Below are positions 552 through 39,322 of a stretch of DNA of 39,436 bases, in pieces. Within the stretch, counting starts at the first letter, position 1. Every line of letters begins with the position of its first letter. Source of the stretch: Escherichia phage vB_EcoP_Kapi1; the sequence record MT813197. One strand, given 5' to 3'. A program made the position numbers and the translations under genes. The notes under the pieces were generated by a model. That model was not told the DNA's origin, did not search any database, and saw only the letters and a program-made list of their open reading frames with translations.

Positions 552-851
552 TTATTCGATTCGCACACCTGGTATTTCGCCTTTTGAAATGGCGAAGTCA
601 TAAATTTGCGCAGCACTATACCCATCTCGCATCCATGAATCTAAGGCGCGAATAGCCTCGCTACGCTTTTTATCTTCTCTTTCATTTTTGATATCAACGA
701 GGACATCAACGCAATTAAGGCATATGTGGATTTTGTCCTTACATTCGATCATGGCGGCTTTACCATGATTTCCGCCACACAGTGAGCATAAATCTTCAGG
801 GTCTGGCTGGTATTTCTGTAACGTTAAAGGGTTGAATGTTGAACAGGCCAT
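552..851 (-). CDS. Hypothetical zinc-ribbon protein (CxxC...CxxC)
   Basis: ORF 552..863; start moved to third in-frame ATG (849-851) which has a GGAG RBS; motif CSLCGG...CLNC. Confidence 0.5.
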   Translation of the reverse strand: MACSTFNPLTLQKYQPDPEDLCSLCGGNHGKAAMIECKDKIHICLNCVDVLVDIKNEREDKKRSEAIRALDSWMRDGYSAAQIYDFAISKGEIPGVRIE

Positions 852-861
852 AATCATCTCC

Positions 862-888
862 ATAAAACAAAACTCGCCGTAGCGAGTT
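862..888 (-). terminator. Rho-independent terminator (minus strand)
   Basis: Hairpin AACTCGC-CGTA-GCGAGTT followed on minus strand by TTGTTTTAT. Confidence 0.5.
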
Positions 889-1008: not shown

Positions 1009-1290
1009 TCATTTTTCCTCTTTTGGTTTATGAATCTGAATGGTCATGCCGCTTTGAGTGGTGACTACAATGACAGAACCAGGCTGAAGGCTGTTAAGAT
1101 TGAATGCTTCGTAAAACGAATCCAATGCCAGTGCTTTTTTATTCTTTCGGTTCCACCAACGCCATCCCCTGCTACAGGCCATGTTGACAATCCACTGCCC
1201 ACTCCTGTAAGCCATATAAAACCAGATGAGCAAAACCTGAAGGAAGGCTATCCAGTCAATAATCGTATATTTCGCGAAGGAGTCCATCAC
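1009..1290 (-). CDS. Hypothetical membrane protein (N-terminal TM helix)
   Basis: 93 aa; hydrophobic segment YTIIDWIAFLQVLLIWFYMAY; stop overlaps start of upstream gene. Confidence 0.5.
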   Translation of the reverse strand: MMDSFAKYTIIDWIAFLQVLLIWFYMAYRSGQWIVNMACSRGWRWWNRKNKKALALDSFYEAFNLNSLQPGSVIVVTTQSGMTIQIHKPKEEK

Positions 1291-1934
1291 TTCACCTCCT
1301 GCGGCGGTTCCGGTAGCGGCATCCAGTGAGTTACACCGCCAATTGGCTCATCGTCGTCGTACTCCAATGCGGTTATATAGAACCCGTCACGACGAGAATA
1401 AGAAATCCCTGACATTACAATGCCATCAGAAACAACAATAATGTCACCCGTTTCTTCCGGCATTCGCTCACTACAGCTTATCCAACCATCCGGAATTACC
1501 GGAGAGTTGCCGGGTTCTTTAATGTGCAAGCGAGGCTCACCATCTTTTGGTTCAGGCCACTGGCGCTCCATGTTGATCTTCAATTTATTTTCCATAGCAG
1601 CGGTAATTTCAGCATCACTGATACCAGCACGGCGCTGTGCATCCCACAACAGGAACTGCATATCAGCCCACTCGCTGAGATCGTCAGGTTCGGCTGCGGC
1701 TTCCAGAGCCTCTTTTGAGAGGTGTTTCAGTGGACCAATGGGGCCAACGCAGCCAAATGTGGAGTCAGACCATTTGGCATGCTCGTGGCGAATCTGTTCG
1801 CGTTCCAGTGATGCCAGTGCAATTCGTGCCAGTTCTTCCGCTTCTTCTGCTGGCAGTACAACGTTGCTACCAGGTCCGTATGTTTCGCGCCACTGCTTGA
1901 TTGTCAGCAGTCGCTCTTTGGTAATAGTGGTCAT
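1287..1934 (-). CDS. DUF550/DUF551-type phage protein (putative dATP/dGTP pyrophosphohydrolase-like N-domain plus DUF551 C-domain)
   Basis: 215 aa; C-terminus VTHWMPLPEPP is the DUF551 signature as I recall it; common in lambdoid early-left regions. Confidence 0.6.
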   Translation of the reverse strand: MTTITKERLLTIKQWRETYGPGSNVVLPAEEAEELARIALASLEREQIRHEHAKWSDSTFGCVGPIGPLKHLSKEALEAAAEPDDLSEWADMQFLLWDAQRRAGISDAEITAAMENKLKINMERQWPEPKDGEPRLHIKEPGNSPVIPDGWISCSERMPEETGDIIVVSDGIVMSGISYSRRDGFYITALEYDDDEPIGGVTHWMPLPEPPQEVK

Positions 1935-2129: not shown

Positions 2130-2624
2130 TCACTCTCCTTTGATGCGAATGCCAGTGGTACTCATTCTCCTGATTTCCCAGAGCACACGAGGAATACCAC
2201 CGTTTCCGACCGGATCGCGTTTACTCCGCAGGGCGACGCTTGATTCCGCCCAGCTTTTTCTTGGAGGAAGCTCTTTCACACGAACAAAACCAGCTGCGCG
2301 AAGAGATGCTCCTGATTCATCTGCCTGGGTGTACGTAATACAACGTTGATAACCCATAGCTTTTGCTGCCCGCCAGATAGCACCATAAAGCGCGCTGTTA
2401 GCGTTGCGTTCTCCTGTGGTACATGTGCGATTTACTTCAAGCGTTAATCCATCGTCGAAATGTCGTGCAACAGGTCGACCAGCTGTCGCCACACCTATCA
2501 ATTCTCCGGCATTATTTCTCAGACCAATGCTGAATTTATGCCCCACTGGTGGTTTATTGTGTCGGTGGTGCTGTGCGATAAATTCCTGCGCCGCTTTCAG
2601 CGTTATAGGTGAAATGACCATCAC
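2130..2624 (-). CDS. Hypothetical protein (164 aa), weak GNAT-like C-terminal motif
   Basis: ORF packed 2 nt from downstream gene; motif YTQADESGASLRAAGF; family not recognised with confidence. Confidence 0.5.
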   Translation of the reverse strand: MMVISPITLKAAQEFIAQHHRHNKPPVGHKFSIGLRNNAGELIGVATAGRPVARHFDDGLTLEVNRTCTTGERNANSALYGAIWRAAKAMGYQRCITYTQADESGASLRAAGFVRVKELPPRKSWAESSVALRSKRDPVGNGGIPRVLWEIRRMSTTGIRIKGE

Positions 2625-2629
2625 TCAGA

Positions 2630-3013
2630 CTACTCCTTGATGCCAGCGGCGCGGGAATCATTCCATCGCTTTACTTCTTCACGAATTACGTCAATGCATT
2701 CTTTCGAATCCATTAGGTAATCTTCATCAAAAAGACGTTCCTGTTCGTTTTCTATCGCAACAATGATTGCTTCAACTAATTTTTGTGCCTGAGAATCACT
2801 TTCTAACTCTGCAATGCGCTTACTCCCATCCGAGATAACACCTTCGTAATACTCACGCTGCTCGTTGAGTTTTGATTCAAGTTCACCGAACTTACGGACA
2901 AGATATTCAGCGTTTGTTTCGTTAACCTTTAAATCTCGTGGGATGCATTTACCTTTCAGAAAACCATTCATCTCAATTAGTGTCATTTGTTTCATTTCTT
3001 CCCACCCCGCCAC
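2630..3013 (-). CDS. Hypothetical acidic protein (127 aa)
   Basis: ORF in operon orientation. Confidence 0.5.
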
Positions 3014-3498: not shown

Positions 3499-3987
3499 TT
3501 ATTTGATAAGAAGTGAAGGTTTCCCAACCTTGAGTTGAGCACCGGGAATATTTATTCCTGCTTTTAGTTGGTGCTTGATTGCCAGTTTGTCGGCTTTAAT
3601 TGTCGTTTCAAACTCAACGTATTCAGGAGGAAGGGCGCTTGAGTCGATTATTTCTACAATTTCTGACGGTTTGCGGATTGTTACCTGGTGAATACCTGCT
3701 CGAATATTTTTCTTGCCAACCATTTCAAGAGATGACGCTATATATGATTTGATGCTGTCAATCTTATTTTGAATTACTGCGGCTCGCTCATTCAGTGACT
3801 TTGCCTCTTCCTTGAGGCGTTCGGCATAACCAGATTCATTTTTAATGACGGAAAGAAGTTGTTCTATTTTATCGGTAAATTCTCCTTCCATGCCTTCTAT
3901 TGTGTCAGCAATCATCTCTGGTTCTAAATCTGAATCCATCAATTTTGCGTATTCATTGGCAATTTCATATAGTTTGCTCACTGGCAA
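3499..3987 (-). CDS. Gp157-family protein (recombination-associated)
   Basis: 162 aa, coiled-coil rich, immediately downstream of recT as typical for Gp157-like genes. Confidence 0.5.
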   Translation of the reverse strand: MPVSKLYEIANEYAKLMDSDLEPEMIADTIEGMEGEFTDKIEQLLSVIKNESGYAERLKEEAKSLNERAAVIQNKIDSIKSYIASSLEMVGKKNIRAGIHQVTIRKPSEIVEIIDSSALPPEYVEFETTIKADKLAIKHQLKAGINIPGAQLKVGKPSLLIK

Positions 3988-4876
3988 CCTCCAGTTTCGC
4001 TTTGCATTCTATGTAAATGGCTTGTACGTTCTGCTGCAATTTCATTCCAGATGTCAGGCGATATGCTTCTGCAAAATATCTCTTCAAATCATCCATGTTT
4101 TCAGCCTGAGCCATTTCATCACAAAGAAGTTGTGCTTTATCCGTTATTTCCTGCTGGCGTTTCCGTTCATCTTCGCGGATATCTTCCTCTGATTTGTGCG
4201 GCATAACTGGTTCAGTCCATACACCTTCTTCTTCGTTTAGTACGTGAATAGCACTATCAAGACGTGATGCCTTAGGCCAATACTTGCTTGCACGCTTTAC
4301 GACCGTCTTTCGCGCCATCTCATTCCAGTGATTTACCCATGGTCCTTTATCGCTGAATGCCGCCTTGCTTGTTTTCCTTACAGCCTCAATTTCAGCCAGA
4401 CTCATCTCTTCCGTTAGATAATCACCTGCTGGCGTCTTAACTGTGCAGTAAACACCAACGATATCGCCACGATCACCGAAGGCGTTGTATTTATGGGTTG
4501 GTGCTTTATCAAGTCCGTTTGACTCATAAGTATCGTTAGCATGAACAAGCTTTGCCTGACCCCATGAGATAACACCAGACTCCATTGCAATATGTAGCAA
4601 TCCCATATAGCTGATATCAAGGCAAACCATGCCGTCGCGCGGAACCAGATAAGCCAGTTTGCTAGCCGGGTTTAAGGTGATACCGATCGCCGCAACATTG
4701 ATGATGGCGTTCTGTGCGCTGGTTGGATTTGCCAGTGCTGTTTTAGCCAGGTAATCATTTTTCTGGAAATACTGAATTGCAAACTGGCTTTCCTTAGCCC
4801 ATGTCACCGTCTGTTCAGTCAATGCTCCGCAGAATAACTGCTCCTGCTGTTTAACGAATTCAACGATATTGCTCAT
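3965..4876 (-). CDS. recT: RecT-family single-strand annealing recombinase
   Basis: 303 aa; motif GPWVNHWNEMARKTVVKRASKYWP parallels RecT GPWVTHWEEMAKKTAIRRLFKYLP. Confidence 0.85.
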   Translation of the reverse strand: MSNIVEFVKQQEQLFCGALTEQTVTWAKESQFAIQYFQKNDYLAKTALANPTSAQNAIINVAAIGITLNPASKLAYLVPRDGMVCLDISYMGLLHIAMESGVISWGQAKLVHANDTYESNGLDKAPTHKYNAFGDRGDIVGVYCTVKTPAGDYLTEEMSLAEIEAVRKTSKAAFSDKGPWVNHWNEMARKTVVKRASKYWPKASRLDSAIHVLNEEEGVWTEPVMPHKSEEDIREDERKRQQEITDKAQLLCDEMAQAENMDDLKRYFAEAYRLTSGMKLQQNVQAIYIECKAKLEVASEQTI

Positions 4877-5620: not shown

Positions 5621-5869
5621 CTACTCTATTTCTTCTTCGAATGATTTTATTAGTCGGTCAATAACATCATCCGTTTCAATATCATTTCCGTCTGATTGCT
5701 TTAATACATCTATTGATTCTGCAGCGGTAAATTCCATCGCTGTGAGAAACTCGACAATTGCACACTCAACGACATATCGTTCTTCATCTGTACGACATGA
5801 GATAAAAGAGCATTTAATTGCTGTTATTACTTTTTGTTTAAGCTCTGCAGGGTAATCAGTTTTTATCAT
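5621..5869 (-). CDS. Hypothetical small acidic protein (82 aa, about 20 D/E)
   Basis: Strongly acidic composition, C-terminus SFEEEIE. Confidence 0.5.
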   Translation of the reverse strand: MIKTDYPAELKQKVITAIKCSFISCRTDEERYVVECAIVEFLTAMEFTAAESIDVLKQSDGNDIETDDVIDRLIKSFEEEIE

Positions 5870-6043: not shown

Positions 6044-6667
6044 TTATGCGACCTCGGAAGGAAGTCCAATCATCTTATTCAAATCTTCTACCCGTAAAGC
6101 AGGAAGTGCTGTACTTGCTTTATCTGCTTCTTTTGGTAGCAACTCTTTGCTTTCAGGCCAAACTTCAATAAGTCGCTTAACTGTTGTGACTGAGTTCAAA
6201 GCAGCCCATACATTTGATTCGATATCCTTTTTCTTGGCTTCAAGTTTTTGTTGCAATGCGCAGATTTCATCAAACCTTTTTGTTATTTCGTGTTCTGCGC
6301 TAAACATGCATTTATCTTTGGTCGGAGTAGGGAGCAATATATCTTCGCCGTTGCCGTCTTTCCCATATGAATACCAGCCAACCCTTCTGCCAGATACAGT
6401 CAGATAAATTGAAGTTGAACGGGCATCGCATGAGTAAAATGAACATCCCAGCTTTTCAAGTTCTTCGCTTATAGCCATTAACTTGGATGATAACTGATCC
6501 ACTTCCTCAGTTTTCTTTTTACCGCCAAACACAACAACTCTGGCGTCAAGTGCAAGCTGGTTCTTTAACTTTGTTACTTCTTCAAGCTCAGTGAAAACCC
6601 CAGATTTAATTAAAGCGTTACGAGCGATTTTCTCTTTCATACTCGTTGTTAAGCGGATTGATGACAT
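6044..6667 (-). CDS. Hypothetical protein (207 aa)
   Basis: ORF 6044..6727; start moved to in-frame ATG at 6665-6667, which has a GAGAGG RBS. Confidence 0.5.
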   Translation of the reverse strand: MSSIRLTTSMKEKIARNALIKSGVFTELEEVTKLKNQLALDARVVVFGGKKKTEEVDQLSSKLMAISEELEKLGCSFYSCDARSTSIYLTVSGRRVGWYSYGKDGNGEDILLPTPTKDKCMFSAEHEITKRFDEICALQQKLEAKKKDIESNVWAALNSVTTVKRLIEVWPESKELLPKEADKASTALPALRVEDLNKMIGLPSEVA

Positions 6668-6780
6668 ATTAATTCCTCTCAAATAAGTGGTTTGCTGCCT
6701 AATTTCATTTTCTGGCGACCAACACAAGTCACGCCCATTTCACTGCGTGGTTTGCTGTAGTAAATTCGGTTAGTTCAGAC

Positions 6781-6804
6781 AATAAAAAACCCACCGAAGT
6801 GGGC
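6781..6804 (-). terminator. Rho-independent terminator (minus strand), tL-like
   Basis: Hairpin CCCAC-CGAA-GTGGG followed on minus strand by TTTTTTATT, directly after stop of the ORF at 6804..7148. Confidence 0.55.
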
Positions 6805-7148
6805 TATGACCATTTTTTATTTGGATTTCGTTGGTGAGCGTGGTTAACAACCCTGTGCATTACATCCTCATATTTTTCATCTTCAATTTTTTCAACATCG
6901 CGAGGAAATGGTGTTGCTAATGCTTTGTCAACTTTGTCCATTGGGTCTTCATTAATCTTATATTCAGGACCGTCATCTATAGCATTAAAGCCAGGTGTTA
7001 CACCGTTTTTTAATGCATATGCTATCCTCTTTTCCCATCTCGCTATTCTCCTCCTGTCTCGAGATGTAAGACCTCTATCAGATACTTTTCTATTTTGTCC
7101 GTGGTCGGGATTAACATAAATAGTCTTTTTCACCATAAGCATACTCAA
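6804..7148 (-). CDS. Hypothetical protein (114 aa) immediately downstream of N
   Basis: ORF overlaps N stop by 4 nt. Confidence 0.5.
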   Translation of the reverse strand: MSMLMVKKTIYVNPDHGQNRKVSDRGLTSRDRRRIARWEKRIAYALKNGVTPGFNAIDDGPEYKINEDPMDKVDKALATPFPRDVEKIEDEKYEDVMHRVVNHAHQRNPNKKWS

Positions 7149-7450
7149 TAAGCACCGTACGGTGGTTTACTGTACAATTTTATTTTTTGGACTGCATGTA
7201 TTTTGTTTCCTAATGGGTTTGAATCCTTGTAATAAATACTTCTATTTTTTCGAACGACTTCTTCTTTCTTCTTGCAGCAAAGGCTTCCTAGTGATGCTGC
7301 TTTGTCTGCTCTGACGCAACCAGAGAGCTTTAGCGCAATTTTTCGCGCCAGTGCTTCATTACTGCGTCGCTCGGCAATAAGTTCTGCTCTGCGAGCTTTG
7401 TAGCGGCTTTTTGCCGTACCTTTGGATTCTTTCCAGACAATGGTTACCAT
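7145..7450 (-). CDS. N: Antitermination protein N (phage 21-type arginine-rich motif)
   Basis: GTAKSRYKARRAELIAERR matches the phi21 N ARM peptide as I recall it; first gene after pL; start placed at MVTIVWK. Confidence 0.8.
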   Translation of the reverse strand: MVTIVWKESKGTAKSRYKARRAELIAERRSNEALARKIALKLSGCVRADKAASLGSLCCKKKEEVVRKNRSIYYKDSNPLGNKIHAVQKIKLYSKPPYGAY

Positions 7451-7560
7451 GATGGTCTCCTTTAAGTGGCTTTGGCGCATGACGCGTCGAGGTGCTTATC
7501 TTCTCGATCGCTGTCTTGCAGCTGCAATTCGCGCCATCCCCAAAACCACTCAAGTTCTGG

Positions 7561-7764: not shown

Positions 7765-8415
7765 TTAAGGAAGGTTTGCTAGCTTGGCATCAACGACAAC
7801 GCCAATGATTTTACAGTTCCCATTGATTTCAATCATTGGGTATTGTGGATTGAGTGGTTTCAGGAATTTTCTACCGGCATCAATAACTAACTTTTTGAAT
7901 GTCGCCTCGTTTTCTCCTTCAAGTTTGGCGACTACCAGCTTTCCATTACGTGGTTCGACTTCTGGGTCGACGAGAATAATCATCCCCTCAGGAATACTCA
8001 GTCCTGCCGGGGCAGTCATTGAGTCGCCTTTAACATCGAGCCAAAAAGAGTCTTCAGAACAATCTACCGTTGTGTCGTACCAGTTATCTATTGCACGCCT
8101 ATGATATGGCTCTACAGCTTCCATCCAACATCCTGCGCTTACCCAACTAATTAGAGGATACGAACCTCTTGGATCATGCCTGCTGTGATAGGCAATGTTT
8201 GAAAGACTATCCTCTCCTTTCAACAGGTAATCAGGGGAGCACTGCAAAGCCTTGGCTAAGGCCAATAGGTTTTCGCCATTGGGCTCAGTTTCAGATCGCT
8301 CCCATTGGGAAATAGCAACATTAGACACGCCAACCATCTTGCCAAGGGCAGCCTGCCTAATCTTGAGTTCTTTTCTGCGAGCGCGAATACGCTCACCCAT
8401 CAGTTGTGTATTCAT
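7765..8415 (-). CDS. c2: CI-type repressor (P22 c2-like), HTH plus LexA-type autopeptidase domain
   Basis: 216 aa, MNTQLMGERIRARRKELKIRQAALGKMVGVSNVAISQWE...; near-identical to my recollection of P22 C2. Confidence 0.9.
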   Translation of the reverse strand: MNTQLMGERIRARRKELKIRQAALGKMVGVSNVAISQWERSETEPNGENLLALAKALQCSPDYLLKGEDSLSNIAYHSRHDPRGSYPLISWVSAGCWMEAVEPYHRRAIDNWYDTTVDCSEDSFWLDVKGDSMTAPAGLSIPEGMIILVDPEVEPRNGKLVVAKLEGENEATFKKLVIDAGRKFLKPLNPQYPMIEINGNCKIIGVVVDAKLANLP

Positions 8416-38122: not shown

Positions 38123-39277
38123 TTACTCTTTCCCATCAAGCCAGTCCGCCCACCATTGCATCATTTCTCTGCGTTTGTCGAGATACTGAGCATGGTTGTA
38201 AATTCCACGCACGGATCCGCCGTTGGCATGTGCCAGTTGCACTTCAATAGCATCAGCGGGCCATTCGTGCTCGTTCATAATCGTGCTGAATTCATGCCTG
38301 AATCCGTGACCGCTTTCCAGACCCTCATAGCCGATTTGTTTGATCACAAGCAATACCGCGTTCTCGCAGATTGGCTTCTTCTTATCGTTGCGCCCGGCAA
38401 AAACAAACTCTGATACTGGTTTGGTGATTGAGCTTAGCGTAGTGAGAAGTTCAACCACCTGGTCCGACATCGGGACCACATGAGTTTTGCGGCCCTTCAT
38501 CACACTGGCGTCGATGGTGATAATCCTGTTTTCAAAATCGACGTTCTTCCATAGCATGGAACGAAGCTCTTTCGTTCTTAGGGCAGTGTAGCGTAAAACT
38601 TTGGTCGCAATGAGCGATACGATACTTCCTGAAAATGTTGCCAGTGCTTTGTTGAATGCAGGGATCTGGTCTGCAGGAAGAAACGGGAAGTTCTTCTTGC
38701 GGTATCCCTTCATGGCGTCTGCAAGGTCAGGTGCCGGGTTATATTTAGCCCTTCCGGTGACAATAGCGTAACGAAAAACCTCGCCGCATCTTCTGCGGGC
38801 TTTGTTGGCTCGCTCCATTGCACCGCGATCTTCAAATCTGCGGATTACTTCCAGCAGTTGCATCGGCTCAATATCCTGAATCTCAAGGCCGCCGATGATG
38901 GGTAAAATGTCGTCATCAAACATTTTGGCAAGTTCAGTTGCATAGCCTACTGACCAGACTTGCTTCTTGTGCTCGTACCATTCCTTGTAAATCGCACTAA
39001 AGGAATTGTTGTTAGACGAAGCCTTTTTCGCCTTTACCGGATCGATGCCAACCGAGATGTCTTTCCTCGCAGTCCATGCTTTATCCCTTGCCTCTTGCAA
39101 AGTCATAAGCGGATATTTTCCGACAGTCAGGATTTTCTCCTTACCGTCAATCTTGTAGCGAAGCTGCCATACCTTTTTCCCTGATACAGGGACATAAAGG
39201 TACAGGCCATTACCATCGAGTAGGCGGTATGGTTTTTCTTTCGGCTTTGCTGCTTCAATCTGCTTAACGGTGAGCAT
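38123..39277 (-). CDS. int: Tyrosine integrase, P4-type (KplE1 IntS-like)
   Basis: Start placed at MLTVKQIEAAKPKEKPYRLLDGNGLYLYV; C-terminal catalytic region HGFRHEF...RGIYNHAQY; the ORF-track start at 39313 is a GTG. Confidence 0.85.
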   Translation of the reverse strand: MLTVKQIEAAKPKEKPYRLLDGNGLYLYVPVSGKKVWQLRYKIDGKEKILTVGKYPLMTLQEARDKAWTARKDISVGIDPVKAKKASSNNNSFSAIYKEWYEHKKQVWSVGYATELAKMFDDDILPIIGGLEIQDIEPMQLLEVIRRFEDRGAMERANKARRRCGEVFRYAIVTGRAKYNPAPDLADAMKGYRKKNFPFLPADQIPAFNKALATFSGSIVSLIATKVLRYTALRTKELRSMLWKNVDFENRIITIDASVMKGRKTHVVPMSDQVVELLTTLSSITKPVSEFVFAGRNDKKKPICENAVLLVIKQIGYEGLESGHGFRHEFSTIMNEHEWPADAIEVQLAHANGGSVRGIYNHAQYLDKRREMMQWWADWLDGKE

Positions 39278-39322
39278 GGGTAAAAATCCGGTGGGTAAAA
39301 TTATTTTATCCACTTTTTACCC
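39278..39322. repeat. TTTTACCC-type motifs (GGGTAAAAA, GGGTAAAA, TTTTTACCC) immediately upstream of int start; candidate Int/RDF binding sites
   Basis: Same octamer as the tandem repeat at 75-96, here in both orientations. Confidence 0.45.

What the first reader, a model, noticed from the sequence alone, without database searches (positions are those of the whole stretch)
1287..1934. DUF550/DUF551 protein: possible nucleotide pyrophosphohydrolase in the early-left operon
The C-terminal VTHWMPLPEPP matches the DUF551 signature as I recall it, and the central region resembles the DUF550 domain now linked to dATP/dGTP pyrophosphohydrolases. An early-expressed enzyme of that kind could deplete or remodel nucleotide pools or degrade nucleotide-derived defence signals.
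Basis: inference. Interest (0 to 1): 0.4.

Follow-up and report, generated by a model that had tools for sequence, protein, structure and literature searches.

The report
Phage Kapi1 EaA-type nucleotide pyrophosphohydrolase
The ORF is a real, already annotated early gene of the temperate E. coli phage Kapi1 that joins a well conserved, probably active MazG-like nucleotide pyrophosphohydrolase core to a swappable small beta domain; what it does for the phage has never been tested.

Summary
ORF 1287-1934 (minus strand, 215 aa) matches Pfam PF04447 (former DUF550) at residues 48-143 (E 3e-42) and PF04448 (DUF551) at residues 150-212 (E 4e-15).

The window is the complete 39,436-bp genome of phage vB_EcoP_Kapi1. 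The ORF is Kapi1_005, already named 'dATP/dGTP pyrophosphohydrolase' in RefSeq and in a 2026 paper. It belongs to the P22 EaA family and lies in the pL (early-left) operon.

The enzyme reading holds at the sequence level. The crystallised (d)GTP pyrophosphohydrolase MazZ of cyanophage S-2L (7ODY) belongs to the same Pfam family. Its four conserved metal ligands, catalytic arginine and about 10 of 17 pocket residues are present here, and the catalytic residues are invariant in 149 diverse relatives.

There is no PurZ or DatZ, so this is not a 2-aminoadenine (Z-genome) pathway. No neighbouring gene is consistently linked to the core.

DUF551 is a small beta domain with conserved ends and a hypervariable middle. 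It is exchanged by recombination and occurs in only about 15% of the relatives.

Whether the protein manipulates nucleotide pools or counters defence is untested. The finding is ordinary and already annotated: low interest.

The parts
1287..1934 (-). Complete CDS (215 aa plus stop): Kapi1_005, an EaA-family DUF550/DUF551 protein
   Evidence: ORF list; Pfam; identical RefSeq CDS WP_032286604.1; named Kapi1_005 in PMC12922286
1943..1948 (-). Shine-Dalgarno-like AAGGTG, 8 nt upstream of the ATG. The TAG stop of the upstream 63-aa ORF (1937-1939) lies 2 nt before the ATG, so the two ORFs are tightly coupled.
   Evidence: Read directly from the sequence
1794..1934 (-). Residues 1-47: variable N-terminal leader (MTTITKE...), ending in the conserved junction ELARIALASLE that runs into helix 1 of the enzyme domain
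   Evidence: PHROG 3323/660 hits to residues 1-54; alignment A1 shows at least 6 alternative leaders; DNA for residues 1-34 is shared by only 17-19 of 80 loci; helices 6-19 and 29-60 in the model
1506..1793 (-). Residues 48-143: PF04447 (DUF550) domain, an all-alpha MazG/HisE-type NTP pyrophosphohydrolase core
   Evidence: Pfam E 3.4e-42; hhalign against S-2L MazZ, probability 84%, E 7e-6; best Foldseek PDB hit 7ODY, probability 0.97
1662..1712 (-). Residues 75-91: E75-x-x-E78 ... E88-x-x-D91, the predicted Mg2+/Mn2+ ligands (MazZ E35, E38, E50, D53)
   Evidence: Alignments; invariant in 149 relatives; MazZ residue roles from PMC8342488
1524..1586 (-). Residues 117-137: K117, N121, R124, W126, R135, H137. 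These correspond to the MazZ residues K76, N80, R83 (transition state), W85, R94 and H95, which complete the pocket from the partner chain.
   Evidence: K117, R124 and W126 are invariant, and N121, R135 and H137 at least 90% conserved, in 149 relatives
1299..1487 (-). Residues 150-212: PF04448 (DUF551), a small all-beta domain with conserved ends (GWISCSERMP and VTHWMPLPEPP) and a hypervariable middle
1285..1290 (-). GTGATG: the TGA stop of this ORF overlaps the start (GTG or ATG) of the downstream DUF4752 gene (1009-1290), suggesting translational coupling
   Evidence: Sequence; Pfam DUF4752

Best explanation
Kapi1_005 is a mosaic EaA-family protein whose constant part (residues ~36-149) is an active, metal-dependent all-alpha NTP pyrophosphohydrolase of the MazG/HisE fold, in the same Pfam family as MazZ. 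By homology, two or three Mg2+/Mn2+ ions are held by E75, E78, E88 and D91, and R124 stabilises the transition state. The nucleotide is buried at a dimer interface completed by K117, N121, W126, R135 and H137 of the partner chain. The alpha-beta phosphoanhydride bond of a purine (deoxy)nucleoside triphosphate is cut, giving (d)NMP and pyrophosphate. The substrate is most likely (d)GTP, because D98 matches the Asp that reads guanine N2 in MazZ. The gene is transcribed from pL with the other early-left genes under N-type antitermination, so the enzyme acts early in lytic growth or on induction. The C-terminal DUF551 is a separable accessory small beta-barrel, exchanged by recombination at its conserved ends, and is not needed for catalysis. 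What is shown: domain membership, residue conservation, operon position and mosaicism. What is inferred: activity, substrate, oligomeric state, timing of expression and biological role. My best guess for the role is transient lowering or re-routing of guanine-nucleotide pools to the phage's benefit.
For: Pfam PF04447 scores 143 bits over the whole profile. S-2L MazZ, a crystallised (d)GTP-specific enzyme (7ODY), is itself a PF04447 member at 44 bits. It aligns to this protein by phmmer, MAFFT and hhalign (probability 84%, E 7e-6, 93 columns). The equivalents of MazZ E35, E38, E50, D53, R83, K76, N80, W85, D60, L57, W15, H95 (and R94) are identical here; their roles are taken from PMC8342488. 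E75, E78, E88, D91, K117, R124 and W126 are invariant, and D98 and N121 at least 90% conserved, across 149 relatives that otherwise have completely different flanking sequences. The AF2 model places four helices at 29-60, 66-81, 86-102 and 107-123, and its top PDB match is 7ODY (probability 0.97, TM 0.60 normalised to the target). Operon context: cI-like repressor, N-like, Nun-like, anti-restriction, RecT, Mu-Gam-like ... DUF550 ... xis, all on the minus strand. Only 23 of 149 relatives carry DUF551, and DUF551 with 99% identity to this one exists as stand-alone proteins of 108-132 aa. In other phages DUF550 sits beside nucleotide-metabolism genes: DUF4406 (N-deoxyribosyltransferase-like) in Barbarian and H66, and PurZ/DatZ in S-2L and SH-Ab 15497.
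Against: No enzyme assay exists for any EaA-type (lambdoid or P22) member. The full-length AF2 model is weak (mean pLDDT 56.6; ~70 in the helical domain), and the Foldseek E-value is not significant on its own (0.17). Identity to MazZ is only ~30%. Seven of 17 pocket residues differ (H52, S56, F60, H71, F94, E133 and P134, aligned to MazZ I12, I16, N20, K31, I56, A92 and M93), and the helix 3-4 loop is 3 residues longer, so the substrate could be another nucleotide. The experimentally characterised 'DUF550' of SH-Ab 15497 is a fusion in which DUF550 scores only 33 bits. Its partner domain DUF5664 alone hydrolyses dATP, dGTP and dUTP (PMC12884076), so that activity cannot be cleanly assigned to DUF550.
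Confidence: 0.75

Rival explanations
1. Anti-defence enzyme. The MazG-like core hydrolyses a guanine-derived alarmone or immune nucleotide, for example (p)ppGpp as reported for phage Atd1. Alternatively it starves a GTP-dependent defence. DUF551 would act as a variable targeting or decoy domain shaped by an arms race.
For: A preprint reports a phage MazG-like protein (Atd1) that hydrolyses ppGpp and relieves TIR-STING and retron-TIR toxicity (bioRxiv 2022.06.09.495361). The same pL operon carries an anti-restriction homologue (phrog_14587) and other accessory genes. The DUF551 middle is hypervariable (median 24% identity) while the enzyme core stays at 98%. D98 suggests a guanine ligand.
Against: Atd1 is a canonical MazG, and this protein gives no hit to the Pfam MazG families. 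There is no PADLOC match and no anti-defence annotation. Most relatives lack DUF551. The MazZ pocket buries the nucleotide, and room for a 3'-diphosphate is unknown. No phenotype data exist.
Confidence: 0.2
2. House-cleaning enzyme. It removes non-canonical or damaged dNTPs (8-oxo-dGTP, dITP, dUTP and the like) so that they are not built into phage DNA during rapid replication.
For: This is the classical role proposed for the all-alpha NTP pyrophosphohydrolase superfamily (Moroz et al. 2005, as cited in PMC8342488). The core is extremely conserved and autonomous, as expected for a generic metabolic function. The gene lies next to recombination and replication functions.
Against: E. coli already has MutT, RdgB, Dut and MazG (general knowledge). 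The gene sits in the dispensable, highly mosaic ea region, which is typical of accessory or conflict genes rather than replication genes. The characterised family members act on canonical dGTP, GTP and dATP.
Confidence: 0.15
3. First step of a DNA or nucleotide modification pathway. It would supply a dNMP to a modifying enzyme, as MazZ does for PurZ, here perhaps together with the neighbouring XF1762/Mom-like protein or the Nmad5-family protein.
For: In Z-genome phages the family has exactly this role. Kapi1 encodes an XF1762/Mom-like protein two genes upstream (phrog_1384 E 7e-43; NCBIfam XF1762, 206 bits) and an Nmad5-family protein in the same operon.
Against: There is no PurZ or DatZ homologue in the window. 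Among 80 viral loci with a 95-100% identical DUF550 core, XF1762 is present in 0 and Nmad5 in 1. No phage record shares 80% or more of the 1.7-kb region. The match to Pfam Mom is below the cut-off (24 bits against 27.1).
Confidence: 0.05
4. Catalytically irrelevant developmental regulator. Like other exo-xis/ea proteins (Ea22, Orf63), it would influence the lysis-lysogeny decision through protein-protein contacts, with the MazG fold serving only as an oligomerisation scaffold.
For: The gene lies in the exo-xis/ea region, whose products affect the lysis-lysogeny choice (PMC10834534). DUF551 also occurs on Ea22 variant V2 and on YfdS.
Against: All metal ligands, the catalytic Arg and the pocket residues are invariant across 149 relatives despite unrestricted shuffling of everything around them. 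That pattern is not expected for a mere scaffold.
Confidence: 0.05

Closest known systems
MazZ of cyanophage S-2L (PDB 7ODY), a (d)GTP-specific MazG-like pyrophosphohydrolase
   Same: Same Pfam family PF04447. About 30% identity over 93 aligned columns (hhalign probability 84%). Identical metal ligands, catalytic Arg, the K/N/W/R/H residues of the second-chain pocket, and the guanine-N2 Asp. It is the best structural match of the model.
   Different: MazZ is a stand-alone 105-aa protein encoded between datZ and purZ, and it feeds dGMP into 2-aminoadenine synthesis. Kapi1 has no PurZ or DatZ. This protein carries an N-terminal leader and a DUF551 domain, and seven pocket residues and one loop differ.
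Acinetobacter phage SH-Ab 15497 gp40 (DUF5664-DUF550 fusion), the dATP/dGTP pyrophosphohydrolase that gave PF04447 its present name
   Same: Shares the PF04447 domain. BLASTP gives 36% identity over 67 residues, including the ExxD motif and the K..N..R.W segment.
   Different: gp40 is 385 aa with an N-terminal PF18909 (DUF5664) domain that is itself a dNTP pyrophosphohydrolase in a related phage (PMC12884076). Its DUF550 scores only 33 bits against 143 here. It lies beside PurZ and an HD dATPase.
EaA of Salmonella phage P22 and phage L (ea region, function unknown)
   Same: The DUF550 core is 75-76% identical. The genomic position is the same, between the recombination genes and xis in the early-left operon. 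It shows the same mosaic behaviour.
   Different: P22 EaA is longer, and in phage L it is split into eaA-1 and eaA-2, with different N- and C-terminal extensions. It has no assigned activity either.
E. coli MazG and phage Atd1 (canonical MazG nucleotide pyrophosphatases; Atd1 hydrolyses ppGpp and counters TIR effectors)
   Same: Same all-alpha NTP pyrophosphohydrolase superfamily with paired acidic motifs. Bacillus MazG-like structures (2GTA, 5IE9) appear among the weak structural hits. Atd1 is also phage-encoded.
   Different: No sequence-level match to the Pfam MazG models. Atd1's activity is reported only in a preprint and for a different family. (p)ppGpp hydrolysis has not been tested for any DUF550 protein.
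DUF551-bearing proteins: Ea22 variant V2 of Stx phages, YfdS of prophage CPS-53, and stand-alone DUF551 proteins
   Same: Same C-terminal PF04448 domain with GW..SE.MP and THWMPLP motifs.
   Different: Their N-terminal parts are unrelated (a coiled coil in Ea22; none in the stand-alone forms). The only phenotypes reported concern YfdS: H2O2 sensitivity of a yfdS deletion, and yfdS (interchangeably with yfdT) being needed alongside yfdQR for multicopy inhibition of replication initiation. Neither is tied to the domain.

Membership tests
Pfam PF04447 dATP/dGTP pyrophosphohydrolase (DUF550) | Profile HMM score above the gathering threshold over the whole domain | tested here: met
   143.1 bits against a cut-off of 23; profile positions 1-96 of 97; E 3.4e-42
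Pfam PF04447 / MazZ-type all-alpha NTP pyrophosphohydrolase | Four conserved acidic metal ligands (ExxE ... ExxD) and the transition-state Arg | tested here: met
   E75, E78, E88, D91 and R124 align to MazZ E35, E38, E50, D53 and R83. They are invariant in 149 relatives.
Pfam PF04447 / MazZ-type all-alpha NTP pyrophosphohydrolase | Four-helix MazG/HisE fold | tested here: inconclusive
   The AF2 model has four helices in the expected places, but pLDDT is only ~70 there (56.6 overall). The top Foldseek PDB hit is 7ODY, probability 0.97 and TM 0.60 normalised to the target, but its E-value is 0.17. This is consistent with the fold but is not strong on its own.
Pfam PF04447 / MazZ-type all-alpha NTP pyrophosphohydrolase | Metal-dependent hydrolysis of (d)NTP to (d)NMP + PPi; homodimer or tetramer with the active site at the interface | not testable with these tools
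   Needs purified protein. It is inferred only from MazZ (PMC8342488).
Z-genome (2-aminoadenine) cluster: MazZ + PurZ + DatZ | Co-encoded PurZ (adenylosuccinate-synthetase homologue) and DatZ (HD dATPase) | tested here: not met
   tblastn of SH-Ab 15497 PurZ and DatZ against the whole window gives no hit better than E 0.15. The window is a complete phage genome.
Pfam PF04448 DUF551 | Profile HMM score above threshold; the GW..SE.MP and THWMPLP motifs | tested here: met
   56.7 bits against a cut-off of 22, full profile. W151, P159, W204 and P208 are invariant in A7, and also in A8, where S155 and P211 are invariant too.
P22 EaA family (ea region of P22-like and lambdoid phages) | Homology to P22 or phage L EaA, and a location between the recombination genes and xis on the pL transcript | tested here: met
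   75-76% identity to P22 and phage L EaA over the core. The gene order matches.
Canonical MazG / Atd1-type (p)ppGpp pyrophosphatase | Match to the MazG family models; (p)ppGpp hydrolysis | tested here: not met
   No Pfam MazG or MazG-like hit at E <= 1. The activity itself cannot be tested here.
Known anti-phage defence system components (PADLOC-DB) | Match to any defence-system protein model | tested here: not met
   0 families at E <= 0.01

The most novel reading that the evidence does not exclude
The near-invariant (d)GTP-type pyrophosphohydrolase core, carried by prophages in a large share of E. coli genomes, could be a counter-defence or host-takeover enzyme. It would destroy a guanine-derived alarmone or immune nucleotide, or collapse the GTP/dGTP pools needed by a defence system. 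The hypervariable DUF551 beta-barrel would be an interchangeable module that targets or regulates it, diversifying under an arms race.
Probability: 0.12. Interest if true: 0.6.

Novelty: already known. Interest (0 to 1): 0.22.

Why it matters
DNA similar to this 1.7-kb region occurs in 2,831 of 5,426 complete E. coli genomes, and the gene itself matches 322 phage records. The enzyme core has 3,451 cluster representatives in public protein data. Even so, no EaA-type member has been assayed. Knowing its substrate and role would annotate thousands of prophage genes. It would also show whether temperate enterobacterial phages routinely manipulate guanine-nucleotide pools or alarmones early in infection. 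For this window, however, the finding only re-derives an existing database annotation.

Tried and rejected
1. A profile search with six divergent DUF550 sequences, meant to collect diverse homologues for modelling, returned only near-identical E. coli proteins. The full-length AF2 model therefore stayed at low confidence.

I reran it without them.

3. The afdb50 fold library was unavailable, so I used BFVD instead. It returned only DUF551 proteins with no functional annotation.

5. I tested the idea that the gene works with the adjacent XF1762/Mom-like gene or the Nmad5 gene, and rejected it. XF1762 was linked in 0 of 80 loci and Nmad5 in 1 of 80, and no phage record shares the arrangement.

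6. I rejected the Z-genome pathway: there is no PurZ or DatZ.

7. I rejected a defence-system component: there is no PADLOC hit.

8. NCBIfam has no model for this protein.

9. A literature search for EaA and P22 gave nothing on function. The exo-xis modelling review does not mention these domains.
Full report
**Observation**

The ORF list gives a 215-aa ORF at 1287..1934 on the minus strand. Its ATG (1934-1932) is preceded by AAGGTG 8 nt upstream. It lies 2 nt after the TAG stop of the upstream 63-aa ORF, and its TGA stop overlaps the start of the downstream gene (GTGATG).

Pfam matches are strong:
- PF04447, 'dATP/dGTP pyrophosphohydrolase' (the former DUF550), at residues 48-143: 143 bits against a cut-off of 23, E 3.4e-42, covering the whole profile.
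- PF04448 (DUF551) at residues 150-212: 56.7 bits against a cut-off of 22, E 4.4e-15.

**What the window is**

The 1.7 kb around the gene is 100% identical to the chromosome of E. coli MP1, directly next to dsdC. MP1 carries the temperate podovirus vB_EcoP_Kapi1. Its published genome (MT813197) is 39,436 bp with 47.1% GC, starts at xis, and has attP between int and xis (PMC8787464). All of this fits the window: length 39,436, GC 0.471, xis at 91-291 and int at 38123-39313.

Counting from xis, the ORF is the fifth gene. A 2026 transcriptome paper refers to 'Kapi1_005 dATP/dGTP pyrophosphohydrolase' (PMC12922286). RefSeq names the same CDS 'dATP/dGTP pyrophosphohydrolase domain-containing protein'. 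A 100% identical protein is on 58 public contigs.

**Operon**

All of the following lie on the minus strand:
- cI-like repressor, 7765-8415
- N-like antiterminator, 7145-7480
- Nun-like factor, 6804-7148
- Nmad5-family protein, 6044-6727
- anti-restriction homologue, 5621-5869
- RecT, 3965-4876
- Mu-Gam-like protein, 3499-3987
- Ead/Ea22-like protein, 2630-3013
- XF1762/Mom-like protein, 2130-2624
- a 63-aa ORF, 1937-2128
- the DUF550/551 gene, 1287-1934
- DUF4752, 1009-1290
- two small ORFs
- xis, 91-291

This is the classical pL (early-left) operon and its 'ea' (lambda 'exo-xis') segment. The DUF550 core is 75-76% identical to EaA of P22 and phage L, which sits at the equivalent position. 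'Early-left operon' is therefore supported by gene order. I did not measure the timing of expression. The lysogen RNA-seq paper does not list Kapi1_005 among the undetected genes.

**Is the enzyme domain likely to be active?**

Two members of PF04447 have been studied experimentally.

The first is MazZ of cyanophage S-2L, 105 aa. It has a crystal structure (7ODY) with dGDP and three Mn2+ ions, and it converts (d)GTP to (d)GMP. Its residues have assigned roles (PMC8342488):
- E34/E35/E38 hold ion A, E50/D53 hold ion B, and E38/E50 hold ion C.
- R83 is at the beta-phosphate.
- D60 reads the guanine 2-amino group.
- K76, N80, W85 and A92-H95 come from the second chain.

I fetched MazZ from the S-2L record and confirmed that it scores 44 bits on PF04447. 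Three independent alignments (phmmer; MAFFT; hhalign of a 149-sequence EaA-type profile, probability 84%, E 7e-6, 93 columns) agree on these correspondences:

| Kapi1_005 | S-2L MazZ |
|---|---|
| E75 | E35 |
| E78 | E38 |
| E88 | E50 |
| D91 | D53 |
| R124 | R83 |
| D98 | D60 |
| L95 | L57 |
| W55 | W15 |
| K117 | K76 |
| N121 | N80 |
| W126 | W85 |
| H137 | H95 |
| R135 | R94 (in the two HMM-based alignments) |

About 10 of the 17 MazZ pocket residues are identical. The one metal ligand that differs (K74 aligned to E34) is the one the MazZ authors report as not conserved in their own subfamily.

In a six-way alignment that adds homologues from a mycobacteriophage, a Pseudomonas phage, a Klebsiella phage and SH-Ab 15497, thirteen columns are invariant: E75, E78, D85, E88, D91, L95, D98, G104, A113, K117, N121, R124 and W126.

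A search of 1.84 billion representative proteins found 3,451 with E <= 1e-3. Among the best 148 of these plus this protein, E75, E78, E88, D91, K117, R124 and W126 are invariant, and D98 and N121 are at least 90% conserved. Everything outside the core differs.

The full-length AlphaFold model is weak because the alignment was shallow (mean pLDDT 56.6, about 70 in the helical part). It nevertheless places four helices at 29-60, 66-81, 86-102 and 107-123. Its best PDB match is 7ODY (probability 0.97, TM 0.60 normalised to the target, E 0.17), followed by the MazG-like proteins 2GTA and 5IE9.

I conclude with about 0.75 confidence that the core is a functional metal-dependent NTP pyrophosphohydrolase. 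I put about 0.5 on a guanine nucleotide as the preferred substrate.

**Caveat on the family name**

The second studied member gave the family its present name. It is gp40 of Acinetobacter phage SH-Ab 15497, which I located next to PurZ. It is a 385-aa fusion of PF18909 (DUF5664) with a marginal DUF550 (33 bits). A 2026 NAR paper shows that a stand-alone DUF5664 hydrolyses dATP, dUTP and dGTP by itself (PMC12884076). The 'dATP' part of the name therefore cannot be safely attributed to the DUF550 domain or transferred to Kapi1_005.

**Not a Z-genome system, and no fixed partner**

PurZ and DatZ queries find nothing in the window (best E 0.15).

I considered whether the XF1762/Mom-like gene two genes upstream (phrog_1384, E 7e-43; NCBIfam XF1762, 206 bits; Pfam Mom only 24 bits against a 27.1 cut-off) or the Nmad5-family gene could form a modification pathway with it. 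I then examined 80 viral contigs whose DUF550 core is 95-100% identical. The counts of neighbours were:
- XF1762: 0
- Nmad5: 1
- the 63-aa ORF: 12
- DUF4752: 6

No phage record shares 80% or more of the 1.7-kb region. The core is an autonomous module.

In distant phages the family does keep company with nucleotide-metabolism genes. DUF4406 (N-deoxyribosyltransferase-like) is immediately adjacent in both Mycobacterium phage Barbarian and Pseudomonas phage H66. PurZ and DatZ are adjacent in S-2L and SH-Ab 15497.

**Mosaic anatomy**

I ran blastn of the gene against the 80 loci and counted those sharing at least 85% DNA identity with each segment:

| Segment | Loci sharing it (of 80) |
|---|---|
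| Residues ~35-158 | 80 |
| N-terminal leader (residues 1-34) | 17-19 |
| DUF551 middle (residues ~160-197) | 11 |
| C-terminal motif (residues ~198-215) | 36 |
| Downstream DNA | 4 |

The joints fall in ELARIALASLE, in GWISCSERMP and in VTHWMPLPEPP. The same boundaries show up as the common 173/198-549 match limits in the phage megablast. Alignment A1 shows at least six alternative leaders and two kinds of inserted modules.

Among 135 unique DUF550+DUF551 combinations, the median pairwise identity is 97.9% for the core, 45.5% for DUF551 and 24% for its middle.

Only 23 of 149 relatives carry DUF551. Other fused Pfam domains are rare: Lar in 2, and Ead_Ea22, Exc and DUF5490 in 1 each.

**DUF551**

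A profile of 22 divergent copies retrieved 6,239 proteins. Most of the best hits are short stand-alone proteins (67-133 aa) from Escherichia, Salmonella, Klebsiella, Citrobacter and Enterobacter. Some carry a domain 99% identical to this one.

With a 132-sequence alignment AlphaFold gives a small all-beta domain (pLDDT 75, pTM 0.60; strands at model residues 26-30, 33-41, 45-48 and 62-67).

The literature treats DUF551 as a 'portable' domain of unknown function. It is also found on Ea22 variant V2 of Stx phages and on YfdS of prophage CPS-53 (PMC10834534, PMC4776307). I can say only that it is a separable accessory beta domain, plausibly a binding module. Its function remains open.

**Biological role**

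Nothing tested here discriminates between pool manipulation, house-cleaning and counter-defence. A preprint reports that a canonical phage MazG (Atd1) hydrolyses ppGpp and relieves TIR-effector toxicity (bioRxiv 2022.06.09.495361). Kapi1_005 has no match to the MazG models or to PADLOC.

The strict conservation of the active site argues against a purely structural or regulatory protein.

**Verdict**

The physiological speculation is untested. The gene is an ordinary, already annotated member of a very common prophage gene family (EaA/DUF550). DNA similar to the region occurs in 2,831 of 5,426 complete E. coli genomes, and the gene matches 322 phage records. Interest is low. The one open and testable question is what this ubiquitous, never-assayed enzyme does for temperate enterobacterial phages.

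Noticed in passing
window 1-39436: The window is the complete genome of phage vB_EcoP_Kapi1 (MT813197; 39,436 bp; GC 47.1%), the P22-like prophage of mouse commensal E. coli MP1. It starts at xis next to dsdC and has int at the far end, because attP lies between int and xis. This arrangement is already described in PMC8787464.
   Followed up: yes
window 2130-2624 (-): A 164-aa XF1762-family protein (NCBIfam, 206 bits) that PHROGs calls 'Mom-like DNA modification protein' (E 7e-43). It scores below the cut-off on Pfam Mom (24 bits against 27.1). It is a possible GNAT-type DNA or nucleotide modifier in the pL operon. It is not linked to DUF550 in other phages (0 of 80 loci).
   Followed up: partly
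window 6044-6727 (-): RefSeq calls this pL-operon gene an 'Nmad5 family putative nucleotide modification protein' (phrog_1965, unknown function). In Dhillonvirus a single nmad5 mutation stops the Tmn defence system from sensing infection (PMC11846954). This gene might therefore make Kapi1 visible to Tmn.
   Followed up: no
L002:1106-1797 (Mycobacterium phage Barbarian) and L003:1321-2303 (Pseudomonas phage H66): In two unrelated phages the DUF550 gene is directly adjacent to a DUF4406 (N-deoxyribosyltransferase-like, PF14359) gene. This suggests a conserved two-step route, dNTP to dNMP followed by base removal or exchange, which Kapi1 lacks.
   Followed up: partly
window 1299-1487 (-) and proteins P0379-P0498: DUF551 has invariant ends (W151, P159, W204, P208) but a middle of variable length with only ~24% median identity. 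The DNA of the two end motifs is conserved in many more loci than the middle, so the ends may act as homology arms for cassette exchange. Stand-alone DUF551 genes with a 99% identical domain exist.
   Followed up: partly
window 1009-1290 (-): This DUF4752 protein has a hydrophobic N-terminal segment that looks like a transmembrane helix. Its start overlaps the stop of the DUF550 gene (GTGATG). It gives a very weak PADLOC hit to KwaA (E 0.007), which is probably chance.
   Followed up: no
window 552-863 (-): A 103-aa protein (phrog_3680) with CxxC...CxxC motifs and faint similarity to the ClpX N-terminal zinc-binding region (E ~0.002-0.004). It may be a small zinc-ribbon protein. It is shared by only 4 of the 80 related loci.
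   Followed up: no
window ~1287-1400 (+): The Kapi1 lysogen RNA-seq paper reports a short, very weak antisense signal near the 3' end of Kapi1_005, which is the DUF551-coding part (PMC12922286). I did not look for a promoter or an sRNA there.
   Followed up: no
window 5621-5869 (-) and 6804-7148 (-): An anti-restriction protein homologue (phrog_14587, E 2e-48) and a Nun-like transcription termination factor (phrog_5632, E 2e-70) sit in the same pL operon, next to an N-like antiterminator.
   Followed up: no
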